A DNA stretch of 15,191 bases from an uncultured Muribaculaceae bacterium (lineage in GTDB: Bacteria; Bacillota_I; Bacilli_A; RF39; UBA660). The position numbers were made by a program, and so were the translations under genes. The notes beneath the pieces were generated by a model, which did no database searches, had not been told where the DNA came from, and saw only the letters and a program-made list of their open reading frames with translations. This document shows positions 1,364 to 13,386 of this stretch, one piece after another (position 1 is the stretch's first letter; each line of letters begins with the position of its first letter). The stretch covers positions 1-15,191 of the forward strand of contig CAYRXC010000020.1 in the NCBI GenBank assembly GCA_964428195.1, given 5' to 3'.

Positions 1364-3188
1364 CTGGTACCAACTTTTTTACGTAAGAAGGATGTTTTTC
1401 TTTATATAGTTTCAGTATTCTTTGATCATAGCTTTTAGACCATTCATAATCAAACACAGCTAAAAATTCTTTTCCAAAGTTTTCTACAAAACTTCTTATT
1501 TTTTCAAAATGTTCATCATCAACAGTACTCAAACACAAAGCAGTAAACCATTTTATAGATGGATCTGTAGGAATTTGTTCCTTAGTACATCTATCATTTA
1601 TAATATCATCAATAGTAACTAATTGTAGCTTACAAAATTTAATAAAATCTTGAGTCATTTCCTCACCAATAAATGCACGAAGAACATTGGGATTATTACA
1701 TTGATACAAGGCTTTTGAAGCCATAGTCCATTTTCTTGGATCGCTGTTTGGTTTTATTCCATCATAAGGAGTTCTTAAAACTTTATCACCATTGATTGTT
1801 ATATAATCAATAATTGAGGGATGTATTTTTTTATTATCTTCTTGCTCCACATATTCTAAAACTCGACCTTCCTGTTTTCTTTTTAACGCCCATTTTAACC
1901 AATCGTTTGAATCAGTATCGAAATAAACATGAGCAAATCTACCAAATAGTGGTTCACTTAAACCACATGATGAACGCGATTCACTTGCTTCGTTACCCGC
2001 TCCGCAAACAACAGCGTTTTTTGGCAAATGTAATCTAAATCCGCTATTAGTAAGAGTCTTATTAAGTGCAACCTCAAACGCTACTTTCTGAACATCACTT
2101 TTTGCATTTGGTAATTCCTCAAAAAATAATATGTGAATCAATTCGGGATGTTCTTCACATTTTTTACAAAGATTTTTATACCAGTATGGTTCATAAAGAA
2201 ATAGTTCTTTAGAATTAAAATCCTTAGCAATAATTCCAGTAAAACCATCTGAACTAGTACAGCCAAAATCAATCAATTCTAAATCCTTGTCTAAAGATAT
2301 CATTCTTTCTGTTTTTCCAGTTCCAGTTTTTCCATGTAAAAATACCGCTATGTTACTTTTAATACAGACTTCTACGATTTCTTCTTCTGATAAACTACTA
2401 AAGTCAAAACCATATCTATTGCTTTCAATTTCTTCTTTTTCAAATGCAGAAGAAGGCTTTTTATGTTCTAATTCATCATTAATGCTCTTAAGAAAACCAT
2501 TATTCAAATATCTATTCAATTGACTATCAGAAAATTGAATATTACTATTATCAAAAGGTGAAGAAAGAACGCAAGGATAAGAATAGATAATGTTTTTATC
2601 AAAAACAAAAGGCACTTCTTCAACTTTAACATATATAATTTGATCTTTATTTGCAAATGTTCCATCTGATAACATTATTTTCCCAGCTTTATTTTGTATT
2701 TTTATAAATCTTATTCCTAATACTTCAAATTCTTCAAATAATTCATTATTTATATCATATTGTTTTCCTGTTTTAAACAATAATTTACTACGAGTTTGAA
2801 ACATTTTATCTATAGTTTTACCAACCATACCATTTATAGCTGTTTGCGGGAATTCTAAAACCATGTCATCAACTTGTGAATCTTTAAAATCTTCAATATC
2901 ACTTAAATTGACTACAATTCTAACCCCTCTTTTTTTATCATCGATATTCATACCATTTATGCATCCAGCTCTATTGATAGATTTTCTTGATCTCTGTTTT
3001 GGTTTGTTTTGAGATGGTAAACCATCAAACCAATACTCTCCAGTTCCTGTTGTTTCATCAAATGTATTACTTGTAATTCTTGCAAGATCAGAATATGTAC
3101 ACTCTAATCCTATGTTTTTTATAGTATCTAGTGCAAAATCACCACAAAGTTGTTCTTCGGTAAAAATGCCTATTTTTGTTATTTTCAT
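1350..3188 (-). CDS. MoxR/AAA_5-like AAA+ ATPase with an unassigned N-terminal module of about 290 aa and a C-terminal helical extension of about 200 aa
   Basis: Walker A HGKTGTGKT, with GKTGTGKT encoded at 2310-2333. Walker B-like HILFFEEL has EE in place of DE. Sensor-1-like VVCGAGNE and the MoxR-type PLFGRF arginine segment are present. I place the start at the ATG at 3186-3188 (MKITKIG...), because a GGGGGA Shine-Dalgarno (plus strand tccccc, 3194-3199) sits 5 nt upstream. The track's longer 630-aa version (to 3242) has no comparable RBS. Confidence 0.8.
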   Translation of the reverse strand: MKITKIGIFTEEQLCGDFALDTIKNIGLECTYSDLARITSNTFDETTGTGEYWFDGLPSQNKPKQRSRKSINRAGCINGMNIDDKKRGVRIVVNLSDIEDFKDSQVDDMVLEFPQTAINGMVGKTIDKMFQTRSKLLFKTGKQYDINNELFEEFEVLGIRFIKIQNKAGKIMLSDGTFANKDQIIYVKVEEVPFVFDKNIIYSYPCVLSSPFDNSNIQFSDSQLNRYLNNGFLKSINDELEHKKPSSAFEKEEIESNRYGFDFSSLSEEEIVEVCIKSNIAVFLHGKTGTGKTERMISLDKDLELIDFGCTSSDGFTGIIAKDFNSKELFLYEPYWYKNLCKKCEEHPELIHILFFEELPNAKSDVQKVAFEVALNKTLTNSGFRLHLPKNAVVCGAGNEASESRSSCGLSEPLFGRFAHVYFDTDSNDWLKWALKRKQEGRVLEYVEQEDNKKIHPSIIDYITINGDKVLRTPYDGIKPNSDPRKWTMASKALYQCNNPNVLRAFIGEEMTQDFIKFCKLQLVTIDDIINDRCTKEQIPTDPSIKWFTALCLSTVDDEHFEKIRSFVENFGKEFLAVFDYEWSKSYDQRILKLYKEKHPSYVKKLVPDAIE

Positions 3189-3270
3189 ATTAATCCCCCA
3201 TAAATTGTCAATTATGCTATCATAAATGCGTTTTTTTTTCAACTTAATACACTTTCATTAATTAAATTAT

Positions 3271-3299
3271 AAAAATCAATTCATATAGAATTGATTTTT
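3271..3299 (-). terminator. Hairpin terminator ending the NAD operon; potentially bidirectional
   Basis: Perfect 12-bp inverted repeat aaaaatcaattc (3271-3282) / gaattgattttt (3288-3299) with loop atata. A-run and T-run arms give a U-tract on either strand. It lies 36 nt past the nrtR stop (3335) and upstream of the ATPase gene start (3188). The stem is AT-rich with only 2 G-C pairs, so strength is uncertain. Confidence 0.6.
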
Positions 3300-3334
3300 T
3301 TATTTATTTAAAAGATTTTTAAAAAAAATATTGA

Positions 3335-4150
3335 TTAATGCTTATATTTAAATAATACAGAAGGTCTATGTCCTCCACCAGTTTTAATTTTATCTGTTGC
3401 TTTAACTTTATTTGCAATTATTCTTCTAAAAGCTGGATCTAATAATTTCCTTCCAAGTATTATTTCGTATACTTGTTGCAATTCTCCCAATGTGAAGAAT
3501 TCTGGCATCATATTAAAAACTATGTCTGTATATTCTAATTTGTTTTTTAATCTTGATATTCCTGATGCAATTACAATAGAGTGATCAAATGCAATATTAT
3601 TATTGCCTTCTTCAATATACTTGTATCTATCAGTTGTTTTTTCATAAAGTATTTTTTTTATTTTTAAATCAATTATTTCCTCTCCGTTATCAAGCTTAAT
3701 AAAAATATTGTTCTTATTTTCAGTATAGTTTATATTAAACCACGAAGCATTACTTGCAAGTTTTCCATTTAACTTTGTCTTGTCAATGAGAGCCATATAC
3801 GACGTACTAACTATTCTCATTCTAGGATCGCGATTTACTTCTCCAAAAGTATATAATTGTTCTAAATATAAATCTTTTAATTTCGTTTCATTTTCTAAAA
3901 TTCTTTTTGGAGCATCATCCAAGTTCTCATCTATTTTTATAAATCCCCCAGGTAAGCACCATTTATCTTTAAATGGATAATCATCCCTTTTTACTAATAA
4001 TACAGAAAAATACTTTTCATTAAGTTTTCTATAACTTTCTTTCTCTCCATTTGAAACACTAAATATAAGTATATCTGCAGTCATTGATAGTTTTTCATAT
4101 CTATTTGAATCATAAGCTTTTAGAAATTCTTCTTCATTTTTATAATTCAT
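3335..4150 (-). CDS. nrtR: NrtR-family Nudix-related transcriptional regulator of NAD metabolism: degenerate Nudix domain plus C-terminal winged helix
   Basis: 271 aa. The Nudix box is present but degenerate, G FIKID E NLDDAPK R ILENETKL versus canonical Gx5Ex7REUxEExGU (RE to RI, EE to NE, G to K). The C-terminal segment FTLGELQQVYEIILGRKLLDPAFRRII...HRPSVLFKY matches the NrtR wHTH pattern. It sits inside a NAD salvage cluster. RBS AAGGGG lies upstream of the ATG at 4148-4150. Confidence 0.85.
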   Translation of the reverse strand: MNYKNEEEFLKAYDSNRYEKLSMTADILIFSVSNGEKESYRKLNEKYFSVLLVKRDDYPFKDKWCLPGGFIKIDENLDDAPKRILENETKLKDLYLEQLYTFGEVNRDPRMRIVSTSYMALIDKTKLNGKLASNASWFNINYTENKNNIFIKLDNGEEIIDLKIKKILYEKTTDRYKYIEEGNNNIAFDHSIVIASGISRLKNKLEYTDIVFNMMPEFFTLGELQQVYEIILGRKLLDPAFRRIIANKVKATDKIKTGGGHRPSVLFKYKH

Positions 4151-4151
4151 A

Positions 4152-6143
4152 TTAACCCCTTTCTATTACTATTATACAAGTACTATTTGGCAGTTTTACT
4201 ATCTTCATATTTTCATCGTATATTGTGATTTTATTTAATAAATTCTCTTCATACCCACTTTGAAGGAAAGCTTTAAATTCAATGATTTTGGAATTTTGTA
4301 AATTATCTTCAATTAAATCAATATACTCAGAAGGTGTTAGGTATCCAAATTGTTCTTGTACTTCCAATGAGTATGAATTCTCTCCCCAAGTATAAGTATA
4401 CAAAAATTCCATAGCATCATTTACATACATTTTTACTTTGTTTTCATCTACTCTTTCATATGATATATTTCTACCTTTAAAATCTATGCAATAATTATCT
4501 AAAATATCGATATCACTTTTATTTTTAAACTCGATAACTCGATATTGATCTGTGGGTTCGGTTTTTATTCCATCTCTTATTATTATTCTTCCACCCTTTG
4601 GGATAATATTATATGCTGACTTAAGAGTTTTAATTACTGTATCGATATTGAATTTTTCTCCATTATATTCAATATATGAGAAAAGTTCATGTATTATCGA
4701 AGAATAGATAATTGTATCGATGCTTCCTTTATTGAAATACTTTTCTAAATATAGCGCATCTCCCTCTATAATTCCCCATTTTCTTTGTTCAACTGCTTTT
4801 CTCTTATTTAGTGCTTCTATAACATTTTTTGATATATCTATTCCGATTACATTTAAAGTATTATTCGATTCCTCAATTAAATCGAGCAATATCCCTCCGC
4901 CTGGGCCAACATCTAATACATTTTTTCCTACAATATAATCTAATAATATTTTTTTGTTATTAAATGATGCATTCATAACATTTAAGTAATTTATTTCATT
5001 ATAAAATCTATCATACTTATCCCTTCTAAATCCAAATAAGTCATATAGAATATATACTGCTTTGTTATATAAAGAATTACTTGTGTATGCAACCTCACAA
5101 AATTCAATTAGTTTTGAAGCTTGGATAGAAAATACAAAGTTAAATAAGAAAGTATTATTTTTATTAGTAATGTCAAATCTGATATGAGGATTAGTCTTAA
5201 TGTTACTATTTATTATATCTTCAAAGCTTAACTCTCCAAGCATATTTTCTATTATTCTTTTTTTATAAATATTTACTATCTTTTTTTCCTTATAATCAAA
5301 ATATATGTTTTTCATTAGTTTTTCAAAAGAAATGTGCCCTACTTCCTTAACATTTGCTGAAATATACAATAGTATTTTAGTTTTTTCTATTATACTAAAA
5401 TCCTTTAATGCTCCTTCATAATACCAAAGCTCTAAATTATTAAAAACTTTTAAGAGAGCGTCCTTAATGTATGATTTATCTATAATTTGGATTTCTTCAT
5501 CTGTTGCTCTTTTATTCAATCTTTTGAATCTTTTCATTACGTCTATTTTCTCTTCAAAATCATTATTAATTATTTTTTCAATCGAAGATAGTATTTCATC
5601 TTTGATAGATTCATATAATTTATCTGACACCGGTCTAATAACACATTCATTTAATACAATCAAGACTTCTTTAAGCAAATCTTTAGCAATCAAATTTCTT
5701 TCTATTAATAAATATAAATCTTTATTTATGCTTAGATTGACTTCTCCCCTTATATATTGACCAATTAAACCATGTGTTTTTATTAATACTCTTACAACTT
5801 CATCATAATCTTTATTTTCTAAGCAATATATTTGAGAAGATCCAATATTATGGACATTCATATCAAAACCATTTTTTATCCATTTTTTTCTATCAGCTTT
5901 TGACCCAGTCTTTGCAACTTCAGTCCATTTTAAAGTTTCGGCAACATAATAATACACTTTTCCAGTGGGTTTTATTTTTTCCAATACCTCAAAAGAATCA
6001 ACAACATAATTATATACTAAACTACTAGATAGTTCAGACAATGACTTAATTCTTTCATAATTATAATTCTTTTCTCTAGTGTTAACTAAGAAACCAATCC
6101 AGTTTAAATCAATCTTATTTTTTAAAGCTTCAAGTTCTTTCAT
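4152..6143 (-). CDS. Orphan 663-aa fusion: unassigned N-terminal region of about 400 aa, class I SAM-dependent methyltransferase core, and a C-terminal extension of about 100 aa
   Basis: SAM-binding motif I VLDVGPGGG is encoded at 4893-4919. It is followed by NVIGIDIS (motif II-like acidic residue) and IIYSSIIHE and GGRIIIRD, the usual Rossmann methyltransferase order. I recognise no family for residues 1-400. RBS AGAGG lies upstream of the ATG at 6141-6143. The stop is 1 nt from the nrtR ATG. Confidence 0.7.
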   Translation of the reverse strand: MKELEALKNKIDLNWIGFLVNTREKNYNYERIKSLSELSSSLVYNYVVDSFEVLEKIKPTGKVYYYVAETLKWTEVAKTGSKADRKKWIKNGFDMNVHNIGSSQIYCLENKDYDEVVRVLIKTHGLIGQYIRGEVNLSINKDLYLLIERNLIAKDLLKEVLIVLNECVIRPVSDKLYESIKDEILSSIEKIINNDFEEKIDVMKRFKRLNKRATDEEIQIIDKSYIKDALLKVFNNLELWYYEGALKDFSIIEKTKILLYISANVKEVGHISFEKLMKNIYFDYKEKKIVNIYKKRIIENMLGELSFEDIINSNIKTNPHIRFDITNKNNTFLFNFVFSIQASKLIEFCEVAYTSNSLYNKAVYILYDLFGFRRDKYDRFYNEINYLNVMNASFNNKKILLDYIVGKNVLDVGPGGGILLDLIEESNNTLNVIGIDISKNVIEALNKRKAVEQRKWGIIEGDALYLEKYFNKGSIDTIIYSSIIHELFSYIEYNGEKFNIDTVIKTLKSAYNIIPKGGRIIIRDGIKTEPTDQYRVIEFKNKSDIDILDNYCIDFKGRNISYERVDENKVKMYVNDAMEFLYTYTWGENSYSLEVQEQFGYLTPSEYIDLIEDNLQNSKIIEFKAFLQSGYEENLLNKITIYDENMKIVKLPNSTCIIVIERG

Positions 6144-6155
6144 ATTGACCTCTTT

Positions 6156-6623
6156 CTAAAATATTTTATCTTTGAATAACTCAATAATACTACTTAGAAT
6201 ATACTCTTTATTATCTTTTCTATTGTTATATTTGGCTTTTAATAATGAAGTAATATATGTATTCTTATCTCTATCATAAATGCATATAAATATATCATCA
6301 TCATTTCCAACTTCATTATTTTTATCAACTTTATTTAACTTTCCAGTTATTCCCAAACCATAATTTGAAAGGGTAAAATCAGAAATAGCTTTTGCCATTT
6401 CCTTTGCTGTTTCAATGCTGTAAACAGAATGCTTTTCTATAGTGTCCTTTGATACCCCAAACTTTATCTTATATTGATTGGAATATGCAACAATGCCAAA
6501 TTTAAAAACATCACTAGCGCCCTCTACATTTGTAATTGAATTAGCAATAAATCCCCCCGAACAAGATTCCATTGTTGAAATTGTGAGTTCATTCTTTTTT
6601 AAGAATTCAACTATTTCTTTCAT
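6156..6623 (-). CDS. pncC: Nicotinamide-mononucleotide amidohydrolase (stand-alone CinA C-terminal / PncC domain)
   Basis: 155 aa. STMESCSGGFIANSITNVEGASDVFKFGIVAYSNQYKIKFGV...YSIETAKEMA matches the CinA_C signature (ESCTGG...pG.S..f.gG.V.Ys...K...lgV). AGGAG RBS lies 6 nt before the ATG. Confidence 0.85.
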   Translation of the reverse strand: MKEIVEFLKKNELTISTMESCSGGFIANSITNVEGASDVFKFGIVAYSNQYKIKFGVSKDTIEKHSVYSIETAKEMAKAISDFTLSNYGLGITGKLNKVDKNNEVGNDDDIFICIYDRDKNTYITSLLKAKYNNRKDNKEYILSSIIELFKDKIF

Positions 6624-6630
6624 AATACTC

Positions 6631-7680
6631 CTACTTCCATATAGTATCTATATTAAACTTTTCTTTTATTATATTTTTCGATTCATTAAATCTCTCTAAG
6701 TAATTACCTTTTAAACTAATATATTTTATATTATGATTTTCTAATAATCTTTTAATTTGATTACTATATTTATTTCTATTATTATTTATTTTTTCATTTC
6801 TAGTGCCATCTTGAACAAATTCTACAGTTGGTTCTAGGAATAAAACCAAATCAAAGTCATTGATTGAAGAAATGGCATTTGCTAGTTTTTCACATTGTTG
6901 TTTTTCTTTTTTATCTTTTAATAGTAATTTTGAGTAAAAAAGAGTTGTAATTGCATCTGTATCAATAAAAAGCACCTTATTACTATTAAATACTGAATCG
7001 ATTTCCATAACTTTTTGTTTTAATAATATCTCTATTAAATCCTCTTTATTCATGAAATCTTCGCCGCCTGCTATATCGCATACATCTCTTCCCACTTCTT
7101 TAATAAAATTCGTGTTATATGCAATAGCCAAATTTTCTACTAAAGTTGTCTTTCCAGTACTCTCTCCTCCAACTACTAATACCTTTTTCACATAATATGG
7201 TCTACAAATAGGAGGTATATAATCCCAATTTTTATATACATCAAATCTTAATTCAGTAGAACTAATTGGAACTTCACTTCGATCAAAATATATTATATCA
7301 CTTTGATCTCCATATAAACTTTCAAATCTATTTGAACCTTTATAATCACTTCCACAAAATACAGCATCAATTTTTTTTCCAATTATTTTTTTTATGTCCT
7401 TTGCACCTTTTTCCCAATAATAATCAGTATTATAATCTTCCTTGCTTACCGCTTTATCTTCTAACATCTTTATTATAACATTATTTAAGTGTTTACAACT
7501 ATTATGCAACCATCTATATCTCATTTCTTTTGATGTAGATTCCCTTCCTTCGCACCAACTTATAACAACATAAAGAGTCTTGCACATAGAAGCTGCTCTT
7601 ATAACATCGTGAATATGGCCAATGTGTAAAGGATCAAATGAACCACCATACATTCCTATTTCATATATTTGATTTTTCAT
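6631..7680 (-). CDS. nadR: Bifunctional NadR-type NMN adenylyltransferase / ribosylnicotinamide kinase, with no N-terminal HTH
   Basis: Nucleotidyltransferase (H/T)xGH motif is present in GMYGGSFDPLHIGH, with ISSTELR later. A second domain carries the P-loop VVGGESTGKTTL. I place the start at the ATG at 7678-7680 (MKNQIYEIGMYGG) because GGAG lies 9 nt upstream. The track's longer start (7716) lies deep inside pnuC. The chosen start still overlaps the pnuC 3' end by 20 nt. Confidence 0.8.
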   Translation of the reverse strand: MKNQIYEIGMYGGSFDPLHIGHIHDVIRAASMCKTLYVVISWCEGRESTSKEMRYRWLHNSCKHLNNVIIKMLEDKAVSKEDYNTDYYWEKGAKDIKKIIGKKIDAVFCGSDYKGSNRFESLYGDQSDIIYFDRSEVPISSTELRFDVYKNWDYIPPICRPYYVKKVLVVGGESTGKTTLVENLAIAYNTNFIKEVGRDVCDIAGGEDFMNKEDLIEILLKQKVMEIDSVFNSNKVLFIDTDAITTLFYSKLLLKDKKEKQQCEKLANAISSINDFDLVLFLEPTVEFVQDGTRNEKINNNRNKYSNQIKRLLENHNIKYISLKGNYLERFNESKNIIKEKFNIDTIWK

Positions 7681-8341
7681 ATAATTTGCTCCAGTTATAA
7701 TATCCATAAAACGCATTAAACAAATATACTATCCACATTGTAACCATAATATAATCACTTACCAACAACCACATAATAACAGTTATAATATCAATTATTA
7801 TCCATAACAACCATTGTTCTCTATATCTTGCTAGCATTAATACATTAGCAAATAATGAAATAAAGGTTGATGCACTATCTAATAGAGTGTTGTTTCCCCC
7901 TAAGTAGTCTAGAGACATTTTTAATATAAATATGCCAATAGTACAGGTTATCAAAAATAGTATTGTTTGTTTTAAGCTCATTTTTTTGCTTATTACGGTG
8001 TTAGACTTCTTATTTATATTTTTATTCCATAAGTAGTATCCAATAAACTGTGATGGTAAATAATATAAAGCATTTAGTATTACTTCTCCATAATATTTAT
8101 TTATATATGCAATAATTACATATCCAATAATATTAAATAATCCCCAAATATATTGGCTTTTTTTCCCTTTTGCACAGAGAACTACACAAAATATTCCCGA
8201 AATAGCAGCAATTGAATTGATCAATAAATATATAATTGAATTTTCTTTATCAGTAATCGAAAATACTAACGTAAAAATTATGACAGTTAATATCATTAAC
8301 CACTCAATAACGTTAAATCTTTTTATTAGATTAACTATCAT
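7661..8341 (-). CDS. pnuC: Nicotinamide riboside transporter PnuC
   Basis: 226 aa, multi-pass hydrophobic. Typical PnuC segments are LCAKGKKSQYIWGLFNIIGY and a C-terminal W-rich repeat (REQWLLWIIIDIITVIMW...NAFYGYYNW). AGGAGG RBS lies upstream of the ATG at 8339-8341. It is adjacent to nadR. Confidence 0.85.
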   Translation of the reverse strand: MIVNLIKRFNVIEWLMILTVIIFTLVFSITDKENSIIYLLINSIAAISGIFCVVLCAKGKKSQYIWGLFNIIGYVIIAYINKYYGEVILNALYYLPSQFIGYYLWNKNINKKSNTVISKKMSLKQTILFLITCTIGIFILKMSLDYLGGNNTLLDSASTFISLFANVLMLARYREQWLLWIIIDIITVIMWLLVSDYIMVTMWIVYLFNAFYGYYNWSKLYEKSNI

Positions 8342-8352
8342 AAATCCTCCTT

Positions 8353-8913
8353 TTAGTATAAATTATTATCTTTAATATATTTGATTACTTTTTCATCTAA
8401 AAATTTGTTTAATTCTTCTGTATTGTTATTAGTAATTAAATTTCTAATCTTTGTAGAAGAAACATCTACTGGTGAGTAATCTCTAACCATAATAAAATTC
8501 TCTTTATTCTCAAAGTTATTTATATATTGATTTAAATCTATTCCATTTCTATTCATTACTATTATTTTATTCAATAGTATTTTGTCAATATTCTTCCAAA
8601 GATGAAGATTAACTAAGTTATCATCTCCTATTATTAAGTAGATTTTTTCATAGTGTTTTTTTAATTCATCTATTACTTCATAAGTGTATTGAAAATTATT
8701 TAACTTATTATCAATAATAATATTTTCTGTTTCATATGTTCTAAGCATATTGATCCTATGAGATACATCAATTAAATCATTTTTATCCCAATAATTACCA
8801 GTTGGAATTATCATAACTTTATCAACATATTTTTTTTCTAGCAAGTAATTGACAACCTCAATATGTCCTTTATGAACCGGATTAAAACTTCCAACATATA
8901 TTCCTAATTTCAT
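8353..8913 (-). CDS. nadD: Nicotinate-nucleotide (NaMN) adenylyltransferase
   Basis: 186 aa. GIYVGSFNPVHKGH carries the (H/T)xGH motif, and the C-terminal VSSTKIRN carries the ISSTxxR motif. Size and layout are typical of NadD. A GGAGG RBS is present. Confidence 0.85.
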   Translation of the reverse strand: MKLGIYVGSFNPVHKGHIEVVNYLLEKKYVDKVMIIPTGNYWDKNDLIDVSHRINMLRTYETENIIIDNKLNNFQYTYEVIDELKKHYEKIYLIIGDDNLVNLHLWKNIDKILLNKIIVMNRNGIDLNQYINNFENKENFIMVRDYSPVDVSSTKIRNLITNNNTEELNKFLDEKVIKYIKDNNLY

Positions 8914-8914
8914 A

Positions 8915-9670
8915 TTACCTCCTATAAGTTGGCAAGTTAAATTTATGCTGATTATTATCGTGCATCTTTTTTATTTTTGTTGCAGTATCTTCATCAATTG
9001 ATGAAGGATCTTCGATATAAGCTGCAATTTCCTTATACTTGACTCCTAATTTATCTTCATCAGATAATTCAGACAATCCATCAGCTGGAGTTTTAAACAA
9101 TACTTCACTCGGAACATTTAATACTTTTCCAATTTCAATTACTTCATCTACTGTGAAATCTGCAATTGGAGAAATATCATATACTGAGTCTCCTCCTTTT
9201 GTAAAATATCCAACAAATAGTTCGCATTTATTTGAAGTACCCGCAACCAAGTATGTCTTTCCTTTTATAGATGAGAATAAAGCTGCCATATAATATAACG
9301 TAGACATTCTCAATCTTGGCTTTAAATTAATATCACTATTCTTTGTTGTATCTTTATCATAATTTCCAATATTTATTAATTCTTCTTTGAAATCATCAAA
9401 TACTTTTGTCAAATCAAAATTATATAGTTCAAATCCATAAAAATCACTAACTAACTTAGCATGGCTTCTATCTTCTTCTTTAGAATGACAAGGTAAAGTA
9501 AATCCAACCACATTCTCTTTTCCTAAAGCTTCAGTAAATAATCCAGCAACTACTCCCGAATCTTTTCCTCCGCTAATTCCTATAACAACTCCTCCAAGAT
9601 TATTTTTTTTGTAATATTCTCTAATGAACTTAACAATATTATCCTTTTCCTTTAAAGCATCAAATTTCAT
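8915..9670 (-). CDS. nadE: NH3-dependent NAD+ synthetase (short form, no glutaminase domain)
   Basis: 251 aa. PP-loop GISGGKDSGVV (SGGxDS). The rest fits the NadE pattern (LKPRLRM..LY..A; TSNK.E...GYFTKGGD). AGGAGG RBS is present, and the ATG overlaps the upstream Nudix gene by 4 nt. Confidence 0.9.
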   Translation of the reverse strand: MKFDALKEKDNIVKFIREYYKKNNLGGVVIGISGGKDSGVVAGLFTEALGKENVVGFTLPCHSKEEDRSHAKLVSDFYGFELYNFDLTKVFDDFKEELINIGNYDKDTTKNSDINLKPRLRMSTLYYMAALFSSIKGKTYLVAGTSNKCELFVGYFTKGGDSVYDISPIADFTVDEVIEIGKVLNVPSEVLFKTPADGLSELSDEDKLGVKYKEIAAYIEDPSSIDEDTATKIKKMHDNNQHKFNLPTYRR

Positions 9671-10266
9671 ATTTTCCTCCTCTTAATATATGGAATAGCT
9701 TTAGTCAAAGCTAATTTAGAATTTGCTCCAACCAAATATTTTCTTTTTTCAAATTCTAATAATTCTTCTAAATTTAATAATAATTCTCTAACATATTCTG
9801 ACTCATCTAACTTTTGCTCTTCTTTTTTCTCACATCCAAATGCTACGAATATATGATTATACGCAGAGCTACAGCCTTCATCTTGATAAAACGAATCAAT
9901 TTCAATTATGTCTTCAGGTATATATCCAGTCTCTTCAACAAGTTCTCTTAAAGCTGCTTTAATTGGTTCTTCGCCTTTTTCAATATATCCCGCCGGAAAT
10001 CCCAATGCAACAGTATCTTTAGTAAATACTCTAGGTTCTATTACAGAAACAATTTCTCTATTCCTTGTAATTGCAACTATTATTACCGCATTCCCGTCAC
10101 TATCATTTTTGATTATTTTTTCTCTTAGTATTGTTTTACCATTGTTTAGTACTATTTCATACGGTTCAATATTTATAAATTTAGATTGATCTCTTTTTTT
10201 AAACTCTATTGTTTTAAACTCTTCATAATATTTTAATAAAAGATCAATCTTTTCTTGTCTTACCAT
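9667..10266 (-). CDS. Catalytically intact Nudix hydrolase, probably an ADP-ribose pyrophosphatase
   Basis: 199 aa. Canonical Nudix box G YIEKG E EPIKAAL RELVEETGY matches Gx5Ex7REUxEExGU. The ADP-ribose substrate is inferred from context and the overall NudF-like size, not from diagnostic residues. The RBS is weak. The gene overlaps the pncB 3' end by 7 nt. Confidence 0.7.
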   Translation of the reverse strand: MVRQEKIDLLLKYYEEFKTIEFKKRDQSKFINIEPYEIVLNNGKTILREKIIKNDSDGNAVIIVAITRNREIVSVIEPRVFTKDTVALGFPAGYIEKGEEPIKAALRELVEETGYIPEDIIEIDSFYQDEGCSSAYNHIFVAFGCEKKEEQKLDESEYVRELLLNLEELLEFEKRKYLVGANSKLALTKAIPYIKRRKI

Positions 10267-11714
10267 TTCAATGCCTTAACTTTTCCTTTCCCATTTACAA
10301 TATCATATATCATATCTTTTTTAAGTTGCATTAAATTTTGAGATAAATCTACATAATATCCATGAGGATTATTTTTTCTTTTTATCTCGGGATATATCTT
10401 TGCAAATTCATTTGCACAGTAGCTTCTTGTTTCTTTTGCGCTCGGTACTTTGTACACTTGTTTTCCATCAATAAATATTGGAACTCTTATATCTTTAATT
10501 GTATAATTTGATATAGTTTTTTGCTTCCATTCTTCAGTAGGATGCACTAAAGTATATTGATCTTTTGGTAATTCTTCATCATTTAATGCTATAACATCAG
10601 CTAAAGCGTATCCAGTTTGATTATCAAAGAATCTATATAATTTTTTATATCCCGGATTAGTTGTTTTTATTGTGTCATTGCTTAACTTAATCTTTGGAAA
10701 TATTTCTTTTTCTTTTTCAATAGCAACTAATTTATATACTCCACCAACTCTTTCCTTTGAAGCAGAGATATTATCTCCAACTCCTAAGGAATCAAATTTT
10801 GCTCCTTGATCAGTTAATGATCTTATTACATCTTCATTCAAACTATTTGACAAAGTTATCTTTGCATTAGGATATCCAGCTTCATCCAACATTTTTCTTG
10901 CTTCTATTGACAAATAAGCTAAATCGCCGCTATCAATTCTAATCCCTTTGAATACTAATCCATTTGGTTCCAAATACTCTCTTGCTACTCTTATTGCGTT
11001 TGGTATACCGCTTTTTAAAGTATCATAGGTGTCTACTAAAAATAAACAATTATTAGGATTGCTTTTTGCATATTCTAAAAATGCTTCATATTCACTATCT
11101 GCATCTGACACCATACTATGAGCCATAGTTCCCATAACAGGAATGTCATATTTCTTTCCCGATAATACATTACTAGTGCCAACACAACCACCAATATATC
11201 CATATTTGCTTGCTTCTATTGCAGAATCAATTCCTCTTGCTCTTCTAGCTCCGAATTCCATAACGGGAACTTCTTTTGCTGCATCTGTAATTCTTTTTGC
11301 TGCTGTTGTTACAAGTGTTCCATGGTTAAAATTTGCTAATATTGCAGTTTCTATTATTTGTGCTTCTATTATGTTTGCTCTTACGGTTATTACTGGCTCA
11401 TTGGGAAATACTGGGGTTCCATCTGGGACAGCATATATATCCCCATTAAATTTGAGATTTTTTAAATAATTTAAATATTCATCATTAAATAGTTCCAACG
11501 TTCTCAAGTATTCAATATCTTCTTCAGTGATTTTAAAATTGTTGATGTATTCAACAATATTATCTATTCCACTAGATATTGTATAACCACTATCGAAAGG
11601 ATTGCTTCTAAAGAATACATCAAAATATGCTATTCTATCCTTTTCTCCCTTATCAAAATATGTTTGACCCATTGTTAATTCATATAAATCTGTCATCAAA
11701 GTATTATTTTCCAT
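10260..11714 (-). CDS. pncB: Nicotinate phosphoribosyltransferase (long Firmicute-type PncB)
   Basis: 484 aa. N-terminal LMTDLYELTMGQTYF and central FGARRARG...GTSN...MGTMAHS are hallmark NAPRTase segments. GGAGG RBS is present. The ATG shares one base with the pncA stop (TAATG at 11712-11716). Confidence 0.9.
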   Translation of the reverse strand: MENNTLMTDLYELTMGQTYFDKGEKDRIAYFDVFFRSNPFDSGYTISSGIDNIVEYINNFKITEEDIEYLRTLELFNDEYLNYLKNLKFNGDIYAVPDGTPVFPNEPVITVRANIIEAQIIETAILANFNHGTLVTTAAKRITDAAKEVPVMEFGARRARGIDSAIEASKYGYIGGCVGTSNVLSGKKYDIPVMGTMAHSMVSDADSEYEAFLEYAKSNPNNCLFLVDTYDTLKSGIPNAIRVAREYLEPNGLVFKGIRIDSGDLAYLSIEARKMLDEAGYPNAKITLSNSLNEDVIRSLTDQGAKFDSLGVGDNISASKERVGGVYKLVAIEKEKEIFPKIKLSNDTIKTTNPGYKKLYRFFDNQTGYALADVIALNDEELPKDQYTLVHPTEEWKQKTISNYTIKDIRVPIFIDGKQVYKVPSAKETRSYCANEFAKIYPEIKRKNNPHGYYVDLSQNLMQLKKDMIYDIVNGKGKVKALKW

Positions 11715-12304
11715 TATTTTCCTCCATATCTTTTTACAAGCTTAATACCAGCTTGATTCATCAATTTAAATGCCATGTCGTTGTATTCTCCTCTGTTATG
11801 AAATGGTGCATCGTATGTTTCAACAGCATTCATTGGAACAACTATTTCAACATCTCTATTGTTTTGATCAAAATAGTTTTGTTGTGGTATCACTAAATTT
11901 AAAACACATATATCTGTACAACATCCAACGACTACTATCTCTTCTAATTTTTTCATTCTCTCTATATCACTTAAATATCTTTCTGCAAACAGTGCACTAG
12001 TAGAATTTTTCTCATATACCAAAGAACTTTCTTCAAATGGTTTAAGTTCATCAACCAATTCCGACTCTGAAGTTCCAATTTCACAATGTTCCGGATATCT
12101 TTTAAATTCTCTAGAATTCTTGTTATGAGAGTCTTTTATGAACGCTACTCCATCTCCTTTTTCTATAAATTCCTTAATTAGTCTTAACTGCTCTGGTATT
12201 ATCTTTGCTATTTCTTTATCTGCCATCTTGCCTTCTTTAACAAATCCATTAACCATGTCTACAACAATAAGTAATCTCTTTAATTCTTCTAATCCTTTTA
12301 TCAT
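11714..12304 (-). CDS. pncA: Nicotinamidase (isochorismatase-fold PncA)
   Basis: LIVVDMVNGF carries the catalytic Asp strand, DSH...PEHC is a metal-site-like segment, and VVVGCCTDICV carries the catalytic Cys motif. I place the start at the ATG at 12302-12304 (MIKGLEEL..., 196 aa) because AAGGAGG (12310-12316) lies 5 nt upstream. The track's 220-aa version would start inside the promoter. Confidence 0.85.
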   Translation of the reverse strand: MIKGLEELKRLLIVVDMVNGFVKEGKMADKEIAKIIPEQLRLIKEFIEKGDGVAFIKDSHNKNSREFKRYPEHCEIGTSESELVDELKPFEESSLVYEKNSTSALFAERYLSDIERMKKLEEIVVVGCCTDICVLNLVIPQQNYFDQNNRDVEIVVPMNAVETYDAPFHNRGEYNDMAFKLMNQAGIKLVKRYGGK

Positions 12305-12319
12305 ATATACCTCCTTTTT

Positions 12320-12333
12320 AGATAGAATTATCT
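12320..12333. promoter_or_regulatory. Second small palindrome AGATA-N4-TATCT in the pncA leader
   Basis: agata gaat tatct at 12320-12333, between the predicted transcription start and the RBS (12310-12316). The arms are short (5 bp) in AT-rich DNA, so it could be chance. Confidence 0.2.
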
Positions 12334-12337
12334 CTTC

Positions 12338-12348
12338 TGTTATTAACA
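12338..12348. promoter_or_regulatory. Candidate operator: 11-bp palindrome TGTTA-T-TAACA abutting the -10 box and covering the predicted transcription start
   Basis: tgttattaaca at 12338-12348 is a perfect inverted repeat around a central T, and its last base is also the last base of the -10 hexamer. Assigning it to NrtR is inference only. I cannot recall a matching published NrtR consensus. Confidence 0.3.
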
Positions 12349-12376
12349 TTATATTAAAAACAATTGTGTTTGTCAA
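12348..12376 (-). promoter_or_regulatory. Consensus sigma-A/sigma-70 promoter of the NAD operon
   Basis: Read on the minus strand, TTGACA (12371-12376), exactly 17 nt of spacer, then TATAAT (12348-12353). The predicted 5' UTR to the pncA ATG is about 35-40 nt. Confidence 0.7.
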
Positions 12377-12410
12377 TATGTTTTTATCATTTTGTTAAAA
12401 AGATGTTAAC

Positions 12411-12438
12411 TTGAATATTTTATAAATTATGTTATTAT
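12411..12438 (+). promoter_or_regulatory. Possible promoter of the divergent nucleotidyltransferase gene
   Basis: TTGAAT (12411-12416), 16-nt spacer, TATTAT (12433-12438), followed by AAGGAGG (12445-12451) 8 nt before the ATG at 12460. Such hexamers are easy to find by chance in AT-rich sequence. Confidence 0.35.
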
Positions 12439-12459
12439 GGTTTCAAGGAGGAAACACAT

Positions 12460-13356: not shown

Positions 13357-13386
13357 AAAAATAGAAGTTATTCTTCTATTTTTTTT
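13355..13386. terminator. Shared bidirectional terminator between convergent genes
   Basis: aaaaaaatagaag (13355-13367) / cttctattttttt (13373-13385) with loop ttatt. The core stem is atagaag/cttctat, flanked by an A7 run and a T-run. It overlaps the stop of the + gene (13354-13356) and the last five codons and stop of the NrdD-like gene (KKIEE*, 13368-13385). Confidence 0.6.

What the first reader, a model, noticed from the sequence alone, without database searches (positions are those of the whole stretch)
4152..6143. 663-aa orphan methyltransferase fusion embedded in the NAD salvage operon and translationally coupled to nrtR
Every other gene in this operon has a textbook NAD-salvage role. 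This one does not.

- **Seen in sequence:** it has a clear class I SAM-binding core (VLDVGPGGG at 4893-4919). About 400 residues precede the core and about 100 follow it, and I cannot assign either region. One segment (LKWTEVAKTG...NVHNIGSS...KTHGLIGQ) is faintly reminiscent of a degenerate metal-dependent phosphohydrolase-like helix bundle, but I do not trust that.
- **Position:** it sits 12 nt after pncC and 1 nt before nrtR, so it is co-transcribed and probably co-translated with the regulator.
- **Inference, option 1:** the substrate is a pyridine or ADP-ribose-derived metabolite, for example N-methylation of nicotinate or nicotinamide as a disposal or signalling branch.
- **Inference, option 2:** it modifies a macromolecule in response to NAD status.

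I know of no bacterial NrtR-regulon member with this architecture.
Basis: partly seen in the sequence, partly recalled or inferred. Interest (0 to 1): 0.7.

Follow-up and report, generated by a model that had tools for sequence, protein, structure and literature searches.

The report
Uncharacterised methyltransferase conserved in NAD-salvage operons
The gene is real, but it is not an orphan: it belongs to a widespread, unstudied family of large methyltransferases in Firmicutes that sits in NrtR-controlled NAD-recycling operons in many lineages, which points to a methylation step in bacterial NAD metabolism that nobody has described.

Summary
The ORF at 4152-6143 is real. It lies on the minus strand, encodes 663 aa, has the SAM motif at 4893-4919, starts 12 nt after pncC and ends 1 nt before nrtR.

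- **Not an orphan.** It matches NCBIfam NF005379 (PRK06922, function unknown) over its full length. The score is 691.6 bits against a cut-off of 602. Relatives occur in 308 reference species genomes, all Bacillota among the loci examined.
- **NAD linkage is recurrent.** I examined 79 species loci. 48 have NAD genes within 6 kb and 36 have nrtR, in at least four different gene orders.
- **Shared operator-like motif.** The 21-bp palindrome WTATTAWC-N5-GWTAATAW flanks the only perfect promoter of the window operon. In other species it also lies directly upstream of the methyltransferase gene.
- **Structure.** AlphaFold gives a confident model (pLDDT 93). The class I methyltransferase core, with a lid inserted after its fifth strand, resembles small-molecule methyltransferases. 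The N-terminal 390 residues match no Pfam family, PDB sequence or PDB/BFVD fold.
- **Function.** The substrate is unknown. My best reading is a small-molecule methyltransferase acting on a pyridine-nucleotide or ADP-ribose-related metabolite under NrtR control. A macromolecular substrate or incidental linkage is not excluded, because Bacillus and Paenibacillus copies stand alone.

The parts
4152..6143 (-). Gene for the 663-aa methyltransferase, a member of NCBIfam NF005379 / PRK06922
   Evidence: ORF. NF005379 E=1.1e-207, 691.6 bits against a cut-off of 602, residues 13-662 on model positions 20-676 of 677. AlphaFold2 model pLDDT 93.3, pTM 0.87.
5436..6143 (-). N-terminal all-helical domain A (residues 1-236), fold unassigned. 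Invariant residues: K78, H98, S102, G128, Q129, G133, E134.
   Evidence: Secondary structure. Invariant columns. No Pfam match in 27 diverse members. No PDB sequence match. No significant fold match in PDB or BFVD.
4968..5435 (-). Mixed alpha/beta domain B plus linker helices (residues 237-392). Invariant or nearly invariant residues: W240, R296, E299, F348, C349, R373, D375, D378, N382, E383, Y386, M390.
   Evidence: This region, together with the methyltransferase part, is what the larger non-Bacillota fusion proteins share (query residues about 220-662).
4464..4967 (-). Class I SAM-dependent methyltransferase core (residues 393-560)
   Evidence: Pfam Methyltransf_11/12/25/31/23, all above their gathering scores. 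Foldseek E about 1e-7 to Ecm18, CouO, NovO, MfnG, DnrK and Abd1. PDB profile hits.
4893..4919 (-). SAM-binding motif I, VLDVGPGGG (residues 409-417)
   Evidence: Translation. G413, G415 and G417 are invariant, and D411 is at least 90% conserved, in 43 sequences down to 31% identity.
4152..4463 (-). C-terminal lid or extension (residues 561-663, stop codon included) with the family signature NDAMEFLYTYTWG ... EQFGY
   Evidence: Most densely conserved part: 21 of 103 positions are at least 90% conserved. Occurs together with the core as a stand-alone protein of about 280 aa.
6149..6155 (-). Ribosome-binding site AAAGAGG of the methyltransferase gene, inside the 12-nt gap after pncC
   Evidence: Sequence.
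3335..4150 (-). nrtR (271 aa): Nudix-like effector domain plus NrtR winged-helix domain. Its ATG lies 1 nt after the methyltransferase stop codon.
   Evidence: PF21906 NrtR_WHD 1.7e-15 and NUDIX 1.5e-9. NF050029, the ADPR-responsive repressor model, 6.8e-47 but below its cut-off. Junction.
6156..6623 (-). pncC (CinA-type NMN deamidase domain), immediately upstream
   Evidence: PF02464 1.1e-27.
6631..12304 (-). Upstream part of the same transcription unit: pncA, pncB, Nudix (ADP-ribose pyrophosphatase-like), nadE, nadD, pnuC, nadR. The likely pncA start is the ATG at about 12304, preceded by AAAGGAGG.
12348..12376 (-). Only 12/12 sigma-70-type promoter in the region (TTGACA, 17 nt, TATAAT), upstream of pncA
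12340..12360 (-). Candidate NrtR operator 1 (TTTTTAATATAATGTTAATAA), overlapping the -10 box
   Evidence: Two matches in the window against 0.04 expected. The same palindrome lies upstream of nrtR-containing operons in many species.
12381..12401 (-). Candidate NrtR operator 2 (TTTTTAACAAAATGATAAAAA), just upstream of the -35 box
3273..3297 (-). Terminator-like hairpin after nrtR, followed by a U-rich tail; marks the end of the operon. Coordinates read for a 10-bp core stem; the fold extends the stem to 12 bp.
   Evidence: RNA fold -11.4 kcal/mol, z = -5.0 against shuffles. Sequence.

Best explanation
**What it is.** The gene encodes a member of the uncharacterised NF005379 / PRK06922 family. 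The protein is one compact unit built from four parts:
- a helical domain (residues 1-236);
- an alpha/beta domain (237-392);
- a class I SAM methyltransferase core (393-560);
- a conserved lid (561-663).

**How it is expressed (shown).** In this organism it is the ninth of ten genes transcribed from one promoter upstream of pncA. That promoter is flanked by two palindromes that are the likely NrtR operators.

**Inferred regulation.** By the established NrtR model, the gene would be switched on together with NAD salvage when ADP-ribose relieves NrtR repression, that is, when NAD is being consumed.

**Inferred function.** The enzyme most likely methylates a small molecule of the pyridine-nucleotide cycle or an ADP-ribose-related metabolite (NAD(P), NaAD, a mononucleotide or riboside, or ADP-ribose). 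The two N-terminal domains and the lid would form the substrate site. The product would have a protective, signalling or feedback role rather than being precursor disposal.

**Shown here:** gene, family membership, fold, operon structure, recurrent linkage and the motif.
**Inferred:** NrtR binding to that motif, ADP-ribose induction, catalytic activity and the class of substrate.
For: **Family membership and conservation.**. All four regions carry similar densities of positions that are at least 90% conserved (11-20%), so the N-terminal part is not a decaying appendage.

**Confident single-body model.** pLDDT 93.3, pTM 0.87.

**Methyltransferase core.** The nearest structures are mostly natural-product small-molecule methyltransferases with a lid: Ecm18, CouO, NovO, MfnG, DnrK, TleD.

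**Acidic family.** Median pI is 5.4 and no domain is consistently basic. This argues weakly against a nucleic-acid substrate.

**Genomic linkage in 79 species loci.** Neighbour families within 6 kb, almost always on the same strand (neighbour counts come from the 82-locus set):
- NrtR: 36 loci
- PncA: 18
- PncB: 18
- PncC: 13
- NadD: 12
- NadE: 12
- NAD kinase: 10
- a divergent NAD-kinase-like protein: 19
- ADP-ribose Nudix hydrolase: 9
- Macro domain (O-acetyl-ADP-ribose deacetylase): 5

**At least four different gene orders, with methyltransferase identity of only 43-48% between groups.**
- pncA ... pncC-MT-nrtR
- nadD-MT-pncC-nadK-nrtR
- nrtR-(pncAB)-(macro)-MT-SPFH-nadK-like
- MT-nrtR-pncA-nadE-pncB

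**Operator-like motif.**
- Two sites in the window against 0.04 expected, bracketing the only perfect promoter.
- In other species the sites sit upstream of nrtR, pncA and pncB.
- They sit directly upstream of the methyltransferase gene where no nrtR is adjacent (L053, L055, L067), and upstream of the SPFH gene that follows it in L047.

**Possible gene fusion.** One partial Omnitrophota protein joins the domain B + methyltransferase module to a NAPRTase N-terminal domain. This is weak evidence.
Against: - No substrate evidence of any kind exists.
- 31 of 79 loci show no NAD gene nearby.
- Most of the Paenibacillus and Cohnella loci, and all the Bacillus copies examined, are monocistronic, including on B. 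cereus-group megaplasmids next to cas3, Fic, EndoU and Nudix genes.
- Two species place the gene between rpmA and obg.
- Non-Bacillota relatives that lack domain A show no NAD context.
- The best PDB profile hit for the SAM-binding half is the RNA methyltransferase Hen1 (E=2e-6).
- The palindrome has an AC-N5-GT core. This differs from the GT-N7-AC core reported for most NrtR groups (PMC2330246), so assigning it to NrtR is inferential.
- The 79 loci are the ones closest to the query out of 308, not a random sample.
Confidence: 0.5

Rival explanations
1. It is a macromolecule methyltransferase acting on RNA (for example a ribose 2'-O, a cap, rRNA or tRNA) or on a protein. Its expression is merely tuned to NAD status.
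For: - The best PDB profile match for the SAM-binding half is bacterial Hen1 (3jwg/3jwi, E=2e-6), followed by RsmA/KsgA-type, PRMT and TrmB entries.
- TrmB is the best single-sequence PDB hit, and the PHROG hit is 'tRNA methyltransferase'.
- Abd1, Trm11 and METTL6 appear among the fold hits.
- In two species the gene sits in rplU-prp-rpmA-MT-obg behind an L21 leader.
- The Bacillus plasmid copies lie near Cas3, RtcB and EndoU.
Against: - All these matches cover only the generic SAM-binding half and fall below family cut-offs.
- The family is acidic, with no conserved basic domain.
- No Pnkp partner and no RNA-binding domain was found.
- The top fold hits are mainly small-molecule enzymes.
- This reading does not explain the adjacency to NAD kinase, PncA/PncB and Macro genes.
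Confidence: 0.22
2. The linkage is incidental. The gene is a mobile accessory methyltransferase unrelated to NAD, perhaps a conflict or defence function or detoxification of a xenobiotic, and it has lodged in NAD operons in some lineages.
For: - 31 of 79 loci have no NAD genes.
- Bacillus copies lie in variable megaplasmid regions next to Cas3, Fic, EndoU, TnpB and Nudix/MazG-type genes.
- A stand-alone methyltransferase + lid module occurs on 125-kb IMG/VR contigs and on 130-148 kb B. velezensis plasmids.
Against: - 36 of 79 loci have nrtR within 6 kb. My own rough estimate of the chance expectation, assuming 1-2 nrtR genes per 2-6 Mb genome, is under 1%.
- The linkage persists through at least four rearranged gene orders at 43-48% protein identity.
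- Operator-like sites lie directly upstream of the methyltransferase gene itself.
- There is no PADLOC defence-system match.
Confidence: 0.13
3. It is a nicotinate or nicotinamide N-methyltransferase making trigonelline or 1-methylnicotinamide as a disposal branch. This is the specific form of the first reader's option 1.
For: - The gene is positioned among pncA, pncB and pncC.
- The core has a small-molecule methyltransferase-like architecture.
- No bacterial enzyme for this reaction appeared in the two literature searches that touched on it.
Against: - There is no similarity to the NNMT/PNMT family, and only a sub-threshold hit to the plant O-methyltransferase-type family (PF00891, 16.8 against 22.3 bits).
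- A 663-aa, four-part enzyme is far larger than needed for so small a substrate.
- Removing precursors while salvage is induced runs against the regulatory logic (inference).
- PncA already clears nicotinamide.
Confidence: 0.08
4. It is a feedback element of the regulator itself. It would methylate the NrtR effector (ADP-ribose or a derivative), or NrtR, and so reset repression.
For: - nrtR is immediately adjacent (within about 200 bp, on either side) in 15 species loci and is translationally coupled here.
- In several Clostridia the local cluster is nrtR-MT-SPFH-nadK-like with no salvage genes.
Against: - This is purely contextual.
- Many family members have no nrtR nearby.
- I know of no precedent for methylated ADP-ribose as a bacterial effector (my own knowledge).
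Confidence: 0.07

Closest known systems
NCBIfam NF005379 (PRK06922.1), 'class I SAM-dependent methyltransferase', an equivalog model with no assigned function
   Same: Full-length match above the curated cut-off (691.6 against 602 bits) covering residues 13-662. Same length class (650-700 aa) and same four-part layout as members from Paenibacillus, Bacillus, Anaerocolumna and Acetivibrio.
   Different: Nothing structural. The window protein is simply a low-GC uncultured Bacilli member. The family has no described function, and a full-text search found no paper naming it.
Lidded small-molecule class I methyltransferases of natural-product pathways (Ecm18 4nec, CouO 5m58, NovO 5mgz, TleD 5gm2, DnrK 1tw3)
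   Same: Rossmann-like SAM fold with motif I GxGxG and an acidic residue after strand 2, plus a lid region. Best Foldseek matches, E about 1e-7, TM 0.45-0.67 normalised to the target.
   Different: Only 11-15% identity. Those enzymes are 230-350 aa and lack the 390-residue N-terminal domains and the NDAMEFLYTYTWG lid signature. They sit in biosynthetic clusters, not NAD operons.
Bacterial Hen1 RNA 3'-end 2'-O-methyltransferase (C. thermocellum, 3jwg/3jwi)
   Same: Best PDB profile hit for the SAM-binding half (E=2e-6). Both are multi-domain proteins with a C-terminal methyltransferase.
   Different: The match stops before strand 4. By manual extension of the alignment, the family has S-x-x-H-E where Hen1 has E-x-x-E-H, a motif I recall from the literature as Hen1's metal-ligand site. 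No Pnkp partner is found in any of 79 loci. The N-terminal domains are unrelated.
Known NrtR regulon members (Rodionov et al. 2008, PMC2330246): pncAB, nadDE, nadABC, pnuC-nadR, prs-nadV, niaP, and the unknown nrtX-nrtY
   Same: Same operon as nrtR, co-directional with salvage genes, and operator-like palindromes upstream.
   Different: No methyltransferase is listed in that reconstruction. The palindrome core here is AC-N5-GT rather than GT-N7-AC.
   Same: All-helical bundle. HD-superfamily proteins are over-represented among the weak fold hits in both PDB and BFVD.
   Different: - The hits are not significant: E > 2 in PDB, probability 0.2 or less, TM about 0.25.
- The H...HD...D metal signature is absent; the family has H98-N99 and H124-G125.
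- No Pfam HD hit in 27 members.
- hhalign against one HD protein gave probability 0.06%.

Membership tests
NCBIfam NF005379 / PRK06922 | Whole-protein HMM score at or above the curated cut-off (602 bits), with end-to-end coverage | tested here: met
   691.6 bits, E=1.1e-207, residues 13-662 on model positions 20-676 of 677.
Class I (Rossmann-fold) SAM-dependent methyltransferases | Motif I GxGxG and an acidic residue at the end of strand 2, conserved across the family | tested here: met
   VLDVGPGGG. G413, G415, G417, G434 and D436 are invariant in 43 sequences down to 31% identity.
Class I (Rossmann-fold) SAM-dependent methyltransferases | Pfam domain hits above gathering score, and the fold itself | tested here: met
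   PF08242, PF13847, PF08241, PF13649 and PF13489 are all above cut-off. 714 Foldseek PDB hits at E<=0.001; all 50 listed are methyltransferases.
Class I (Rossmann-fold) SAM-dependent methyltransferases | SAM binding and methyl transfer | not testable with these tools
   Needs biochemistry.
NrtR regulon | Same transcription unit as, or co-directional and adjacent to, nrtR and NAD genes | tested here: met
   Window: gaps of 12 nt or less from pncA to nrtR, one promoter and one terminator. 36 of 79 species loci have nrtR within 6 kb.
NrtR regulon | NrtR operator upstream of the transcription unit | tested here: inconclusive
   A 21-bp palindrome occurs twice at the promoter (0.04 expected) and recurs upstream of nrtR, pncA, pncB and MT in many species. 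However, its core differs from the published GT-N7-AC, and binding is untested.
NrtR regulon | De-repression by ADP-ribose / change of expression in an nrtR mutant | not testable with these tools
   Needs EMSA and transcript measurements.
HD / PDE metal-dependent phosphohydrolases (N-terminal region) | H...HD...D metal-binding signature | tested here: not met
   The family has H98-N99 and H124-G125, with no conserved HD doublet.
HD / PDE metal-dependent phosphohydrolases (N-terminal region) | Significant sequence-profile or fold similarity | tested here: not met
   No Pfam match. Foldseek best E=2.2, TM 0.22-0.28. BFVD best E=0.27. hhalign against one HD protein gave probability 0.06%.
Hen1 RNA 2'-O-methyltransferase | E-x-x-E-H metal-ligand motif after strand 4 (recalled from the literature), and a Pnkp partner gene | tested here: not met
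   The profile hit covers the SAM-binding half only. By manual extension of that alignment, the family has S482-x-x-H485-E486 at that position. No Pnkp-like neighbour in 79 loci.
Nicotinamide/nicotinate N-methyltransferases (NNMT_PNMT_TEMT PF01234; plant NANMT of the PF00891 type) | Pfam family match above gathering score | tested here: not met
   PF01234 is absent. PF00891 scores 16.8 bits against a cut-off of 22.3.
TrmB tRNA (m7G46) methyltransferase | PF02390 above gathering score | tested here: not met
   21.0 bits against a cut-off of 24. The PDB 1yzh hit has E=0.0017.
Known anti-phage defence systems (PADLOC) | Match to any PADLOC model | tested here: not met
   No match for the methyltransferase, its two downstream neighbours, or the SPFH and NadK-like partners.

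The most novel reading that the evidence does not exclude
The NF005379 family catalyses a so-far unknown SAM-dependent methylation within bacterial NAD(P) / ADP-ribose metabolism. The product would be a methylated pyridine nucleotide, riboside or ADP-ribose derivative that acts as a signal, a protected storage form or a feedback on NrtR. The substrate would be bound by a previously undescribed two-domain N-terminal fold. In Clostridia the enzyme would work with the conserved SPFH and divergent NAD-kinase-like partners as a three-gene module.
Probability: 0.3. Interest if true: 0.8.

Novelty: new variant of a known kind. Interest (0 to 1): 0.62.

Why it matters
- **A possible missing step in a well-mapped pathway.** Bacterial NAD biosynthesis, salvage and regulation are regarded as nearly completely mapped. 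NrtR regulons are used to predict niacin requirements of gut microbes.
- **Breadth of the signal.** This large enzyme is present in hundreds of Bacillota species. It keeps returning to NrtR-controlled operons next to PncA/PncB, NAD kinase, ADP-ribose hydrolases and Macro domains. That suggests a missing reaction or control step.
- **A new domain.** The N-terminal 390 residues are confidently modelled yet match no Pfam family and no solved fold, so they are a candidate new domain.
- **Directly testable.** Cultivable hosts carry the linked form: Anaerocolumna jejuensis and A. xylanovorans, Paenibacillus sp. Root444D2 and P. phytorum.

Tried and rejected
- **Phage origin of the window.** No nucleotide match in 50,697 phage records and no protein match for the methyltransferase. 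The chromosome-type neighbours (HtrA, NrdD) recur in metagenome contigs. The PHROG hits of the two downstream genes are not conserved next to the methyltransferase in the closest species, and a terminator separates them from the operon.
- **Defence system.** PADLOC found nothing.
- **HD or phosphodiesterase identity of the N-terminus.** Rejected as a membership claim.
- **Sequence relatives of the N-terminus in the PDB.** None.
- **Rfam.** No RNA element in the window.
- **Gene-fusion clues from larger relatives.** The Omnitrophota giant proteins mix many unrelated domains (deaminase, HAD, HD, glycosyl hydrolase), so the single weak NAPRTase_N fusion is only a hint.
- **Context of distant relatives lacking domain A.** Uninformative.
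- **Literature.**
  - No paper names PRK06922 or NF005379.
  - None of the listed titles and abstracts of papers combining NrtR with 'methyltransferase' concerns such a gene; I did not open them.
  - The founding NrtR paper lists no methyltransferase.
  - The de Souza and Aravind 2012 survey of NAD-utilising systems could not be read.
- **Hen1-like metal site.** The S-x-x-H-E motif sits where many Methyltransf_11/12 enzymes have their usual '...lhh...' motif, so I do not read it as specific.
Full report
**1. The observation**

The window carries a 663-codon ORF at 4152-6143, running from ATG to TAA. It lies on the minus strand, and the plus-strand reading is full of stops. The whole cluster is on the minus strand. 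From the promoter end the order is:
- pncA (likely start at the ATG near 12304)
- pncB
- a 199-aa Nudix protein
- nadE
- nadD
- pnuC
- nadR
- pncC (6156-6623)
- the methyltransferase
- nrtR (3335-4150)

Pfam and NCBIfam confirm these assignments.

- The pncC stop is followed by 12 nt containing AAAGAGG, then the methyltransferase ATG.
- The methyltransferase TAA is followed by one base, then the nrtR ATG.

VLDVGPGGG is residues 409-417, which maps to 4893-4919. All ten genes are separated by 12 nt or less, or overlap.

The only 12/12 sigma-70-type promoter in 3000-12600 is TTGACA-17-TATAAT at 12376-12348, upstream of pncA. A 12-bp hairpin with a U-rich tail follows nrtR (-11.4 kcal/mol, z = -5.0). 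The gene is therefore the ninth of ten in one apparent transcription unit. The two downstream genes, an AAA-type ATPase and a DUF2201 protein, lie beyond the terminator. They are not linked to the methyltransferase in the nearest relatives.

**2. It is not an orphan**

The protein matches NCBIfam NF005379 (PRK06922.1) end to end. The E-value is 1.1e-207 and the score 691.6 bits against a curated cut-off of 602. That model carries only the generic name 'class I SAM-dependent methyltransferase'.

- A word-indexed search of 5.8 billion proteins returned 740 hits. The best 120 are all near full length (at least 93% of the query covered) at 56-100% identity.
- An exhaustive HMMER search of 1.84 billion cluster representatives gave 127 clusters at E<=1e-30.
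- A scan of one genome per GTDB species found relatives in 308 stretches. The best 80 are mostly labelled Bacillota: uncultured low-GC Bacilli, Paenibacillus, Cohnella, Anaerocolumna, Acetivibrio and Caproiciproducens. A few MAG labels differ (Muribaculaceae, Bacteroides helcogenes, Dojkabacteria) and are probably mis-binned.
- B. cereus-group megaplasmids also carry full-length copies at 40-43% identity.
- The identical protein and operon occur on 12 metagenome contigs from several sequencing runs.

**3. Anatomy**

Pfam sees only the methyltransferase core, at about residues 405-560. An alignment of 43 members down to 31% identity shows invariant SAM-site residues (G413, G415, G417, G434, D436). 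Invariant residues also occur throughout the rest of the protein:
- N-terminal part: K78, H98, S102, G128, Q129, G133, E134, W240, F348, D375, D378, Y386, M390, K397.
- C-terminal part: E579, T583, W586, G587, E594, E597, G600, Y631, P652.

Positions that are at least 90% conserved are equally dense in all four regions, at 11-20%.

AlphaFold2 on this alignment gives pLDDT 93.3 and pTM 0.87. The model has four parts:
- a helical domain (1-236);
- an alpha/beta domain with linker helices (237-392);
- the Rossmann-like core;
- an insertion after strand 5 that carries the signature NDAMEFLYTYTWG...EQFGY.

Foldseek against the PDB returns only methyltransferase-domain matches at E about 1e-7. The top ones are lidded small-molecule enzymes (Ecm18, CouO, NovO, MfnG, DnrK, TleD). 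Abd1, Trm11 and METTL6 rank lower.

The N-terminal 392 residues, modelled alone (pLDDT 91), have no significant match anywhere:
- PDB folds: best E=2.2.
- BFVD viral folds: best E=0.27.
- PDB sequences, by profile search: nothing.
- Pfam, in 27 diverse members: nothing.

HD-superfamily proteins (PDE5, PDE2, SAMHD1, phage HD hydrolases) recur among the weak hits. However, the TM-scores are about 0.25. The HD metal signature is absent, since the family has H98-N99 and H124-G125. A profile comparison with one HD protein found nothing. I treat the N-terminus as an undescribed two-domain module.

The parts can also occur separately:
- Proteins of about 280 aa match only residues 385-662.
- Proteins of 750-4300 aa match residues about 220-662. 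Those whose source is named are from Omnitrophota.

**4. Genomic context elsewhere**

I compared the window's proteins with the fetched loci by tblastn. I also clustered all ORFs within 6 kb of the methyltransferase gene de novo.

Of the 79 species loci, 48 have at least one NAD-metabolism gene nearby, almost always on the same strand, and 36 have nrtR. The recurrent neighbour families are listed below; the neighbour counts come from the 82-locus clustering.

| Neighbour family | Loci |
|---|---|
| NrtR | 37 |
| SPFH/Band 7 | 19 |
| 314-aa protein with weak NAD-kinase similarity | 19 |
| PncA | 18 |
| PncB | 18 |
| PncC | 13 |
| NadD | 12 |
| NadE | 12 |
| bona fide NAD kinase | 10 |
| ADP-ribose-type Nudix | 9 |
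| Macro domain (O-acetyl-ADP-ribose deacetylase) | 5 |

The identities of these neighbours rest. By eye, the 314-aa protein retains GxDG-like and TGSTxx-like motifs of NAD kinases.

The gene order differs between groups:
- pncA-pncB-nudix-nadE-nadD-pnuC-nadR-pncC-MT-nrtR (this window, L011, L012).
- nadD-MT-pncC-nadK-nrtR (L018, L023, L024, L072).
- pncA-pncB-nudix-nadE-radical SAM-MT-nadD-nrtR (L007).
- nrtR-(pncA-pncB)-(macro)-MT-SPFH-nadK-like (many Clostridia).
- MT-nrtR-pncA-nadE-pncB (three Paenibacillus species).

Methyltransferase identity between these groups is 43-48%. Linkage that survives rearrangement at this distance is hard to explain as inherited synteny or chance. My own rough estimate is that a random gene would have nrtR within 6 kb in well under 1% of cases.

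There are exceptions:
- 31 of 79 loci have no NAD gene nearby. These are most of the Paenibacillus and Cohnella loci.
- Two Bacilli have rplU-prp-rpmA-MT-obg behind an L21 leader.
- One Bacillus chromosome has a monocistronic copy.
- Bacillus megaplasmid copies lie in variable regions next to cas3'/Fic/cas6, HNH+Nudix, an EndoU fragment or TnpB.
- Relatives outside Bacillota that lack domain A show no NAD context.

**5. A shared operator-like motif**

Upstream regions of these operons share a 21-bp palindrome. Its form is TTATTAAC-AAAAT-GTTAATAA in low-GC Bacilli and ATATTAAC-AAATT-GATAATAT in Clostridia.

In the window there are two matches at 3 mismatches or fewer, against 0.04 expected. One overlaps the -10 box (12340-12360). 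The other lies just upstream of the -35 box (12381-12401).

Across 1.43 Mb of species loci, the degenerate pattern WTATTAWC-N5-GWTAATAW at 2 mismatches or fewer gives 108 sites. A large share of them lie 8-200 bp upstream of nrtR, pncA, pncB or the Nudix gene.
- In L053, L055 and L067, which have no adjacent nrtR, they lie directly upstream of the methyltransferase gene.
- In L047 one lies upstream of the SPFH gene that follows the methyltransferase.
- In L055 and L089 they form tandem arrays with a 14-bp phase.

This is the position and architecture expected of the operon's repressor site. The assignment to NrtR is still inferential. Rodionov et al. describe a GT-N7-AC core for most NrtR groups (PMC2330246), whereas this motif has AC-N5-GT.

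**6. What it most likely does**

Shown here:
- a conserved, confidently modelled, SAM-binding enzyme;
- co-transcription with NAD salvage genes;
- recurrent linkage to NrtR, PncA/PncB, NAD kinase(-like), ADP-ribose hydrolase and Macro genes;
- a common operator-like motif.

Inferred from the established NrtR model (ADP-ribose relieves repression; PMC2330246): the gene is induced when NAD is being consumed.

Inferred from three observations: the substrate is a small molecule of the pyridine-nucleotide cycle or ADP-ribose metabolism, bound with the help of the N-terminal domains. The three observations are:
- the lidded small-molecule-type core;
- the acidic pI of the family, median 5.4;
- the context.

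I rate this at about 0.5. I consider a pure 'disposal' role for nicotinate or nicotinamide unlikely, because destroying precursors while salvage is induced is counter-productive and PncA is present. A feedback, signalling or protective methylation fits better. The frequent pairing with NAD kinase or the NAD-kinase-like protein points towards the dinucleotide level.

Three rival readings remain:
- **A macromolecular substrate.** The evidence is the Hen1-, KsgA- and TrmB-type hits to the generic SAM half and the ribosomal context in two species.
- **Incidental linkage of a mobile accessory gene.** The evidence is the Bacillus plasmid contexts.
- **A regulator-directed role.**

**7. Comparison with what is known, and novelty**

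The protein is a member of an already catalogued but functionally blank family, NF005379. As an enzyme type it is a class I methyltransferase. It is not a member of the HD/PDE, Hen1, NNMT/NANMT or TrmB families, nor of any PADLOC family; the membership table lists the tests.

- No paper in the searchable library names the family.
- None of the listed papers that mention both NrtR and 'methyltransferase' appears, from title and abstract, to concern such a gene.
- The founding NrtR reconstruction lists none.
- I could not read the 2012 de Souza and Aravind survey of NAD-utilising systems. Prior mention there, or in RegPrecise, cannot be excluded.

I classify the finding as a new variant of a known kind: an ordinary catalytic core joined to an undescribed N-terminal module, with an undescribed and well-supported link to NAD regulation.

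**8. Verdict**

Interest is 0.62. The genomic evidence for a new NrtR-regulon member is strong and directly testable in cultivable hosts. The chemistry remains unknown, and a substantial minority of family members lack the NAD context.

Noticed in passing
L033 12053-14010 and 18 other Clostridia-type loci (e.g. L037-L043, L051, L053, L055, L079): A conserved three-gene module: MT, then SPFH/Band 7 (about 338 aa), then a divergent NAD-kinase-like protein (about 314 aa; NCBIfam NAD kinase hits at E about 1e-7, far below cut-off). It is often preceded by nrtR. It might correspond to the unexplained nrtX-nrtY genes of the 2008 NrtR paper, but that could not be checked.
   Followed up: partly
L055 9661-9821; L089 7815-7919: Tandem arrays of 5-7 overlapping operator-like palindromes with a 14-bp phase, upstream of the methyltransferase gene (L055) or nrtR (L089). 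This is unusual for a simple repressor site.
   Followed up: no
window 122-3242 (minus strand): A gene pair beyond the operon terminator: a 630-aa (or 612-aa) AAA-type ATPase (phrog_1297, no Pfam hit) and a 413-aa DUF2201 protein (metallopeptidase-like N-domain plus VWA-like domain; phrog_1314). The pair looks phage- or MoxR/VWA-like. It occurs only in the same species' contigs and is not linked to the methyltransferase elsewhere.
   Followed up: partly
window 12304-12376: The mechanical pncA ORF (TTG at 12376, 220 aa) runs through its own promoter and operators. The real start is most likely the ATG near 12304, preceded by AAAGGAGG (196 aa, as called on the metagenome contigs). Similarly, nadR is called as 349 aa rather than 361 aa, which shortens its overlap with pnuC.
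   Followed up: yes
L100 (B. thuringiensis Bt407 plasmid BTB_502p, NC_018878.1 440810-442846): A full-length family member (43% identity) lies inside a CRISPR-Cas locus, between cas3' and a Fic gene, cas6 and a DevR/Cas7 gene, with RtcB nearby. Other B. cereus-group megaplasmids place it next to HNH + Nudix, an EndoU fragment or TnpB.
   Followed up: partly
L096-L099 (IMG/VR contigs of about 125 kb) and L104 (B. velezensis plasmid of 148 kb): A stand-alone methyltransferase + lid module (residues 386-663, 41-44% identity) sits next to a 3D-domain protein and an AAA or dNMP-kinase-like protein. In L096 an ATP-dependent ligase and TerC are also nearby. It has no match in the GenBank phage collection, so these may be phage-plasmids.
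   Followed up: partly
L007 8926-9960: A short (344 aa) MiaB/RimO-like radical SAM protein lies immediately upstream of the methyltransferase gene, inside an NAD salvage operon of a 1.49-Mb Bacilli chromosome.
   Followed up: no
L008 8934-13332; also L019: In two Bacilli species the methyltransferase gene sits between rpmA and obg, behind an L21 leader (RF00559). As I recall, B. subtilis has spo0B in that slot.
   Followed up: no
P0205 (OGX52912.1), P0241, P0254, P0196 (Omnitrophota): Giant multi-domain proteins (1270-4308 aa) contain the domain B + methyltransferase + lid module. One partial protein continues into a NAPRTase N-terminal domain. Another combines deaminase, HAD, a second methyltransferase, HD and glycosyl hydrolase 77 domains.
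   Followed up: partly
window 13368-15059 (minus strand) and 12460-13356 (plus strand): An anaerobic ribonucleotide reductase gene (NrdD) whose ORF call in the window (563 aa) is shorter than the 666-aa gene with an ATP-cone called on the longer contig, and a divergently transcribed sugar-nucleotidyltransferase gene that shares the intergenic region holding the pncA promoter and operators.
   Followed up: no
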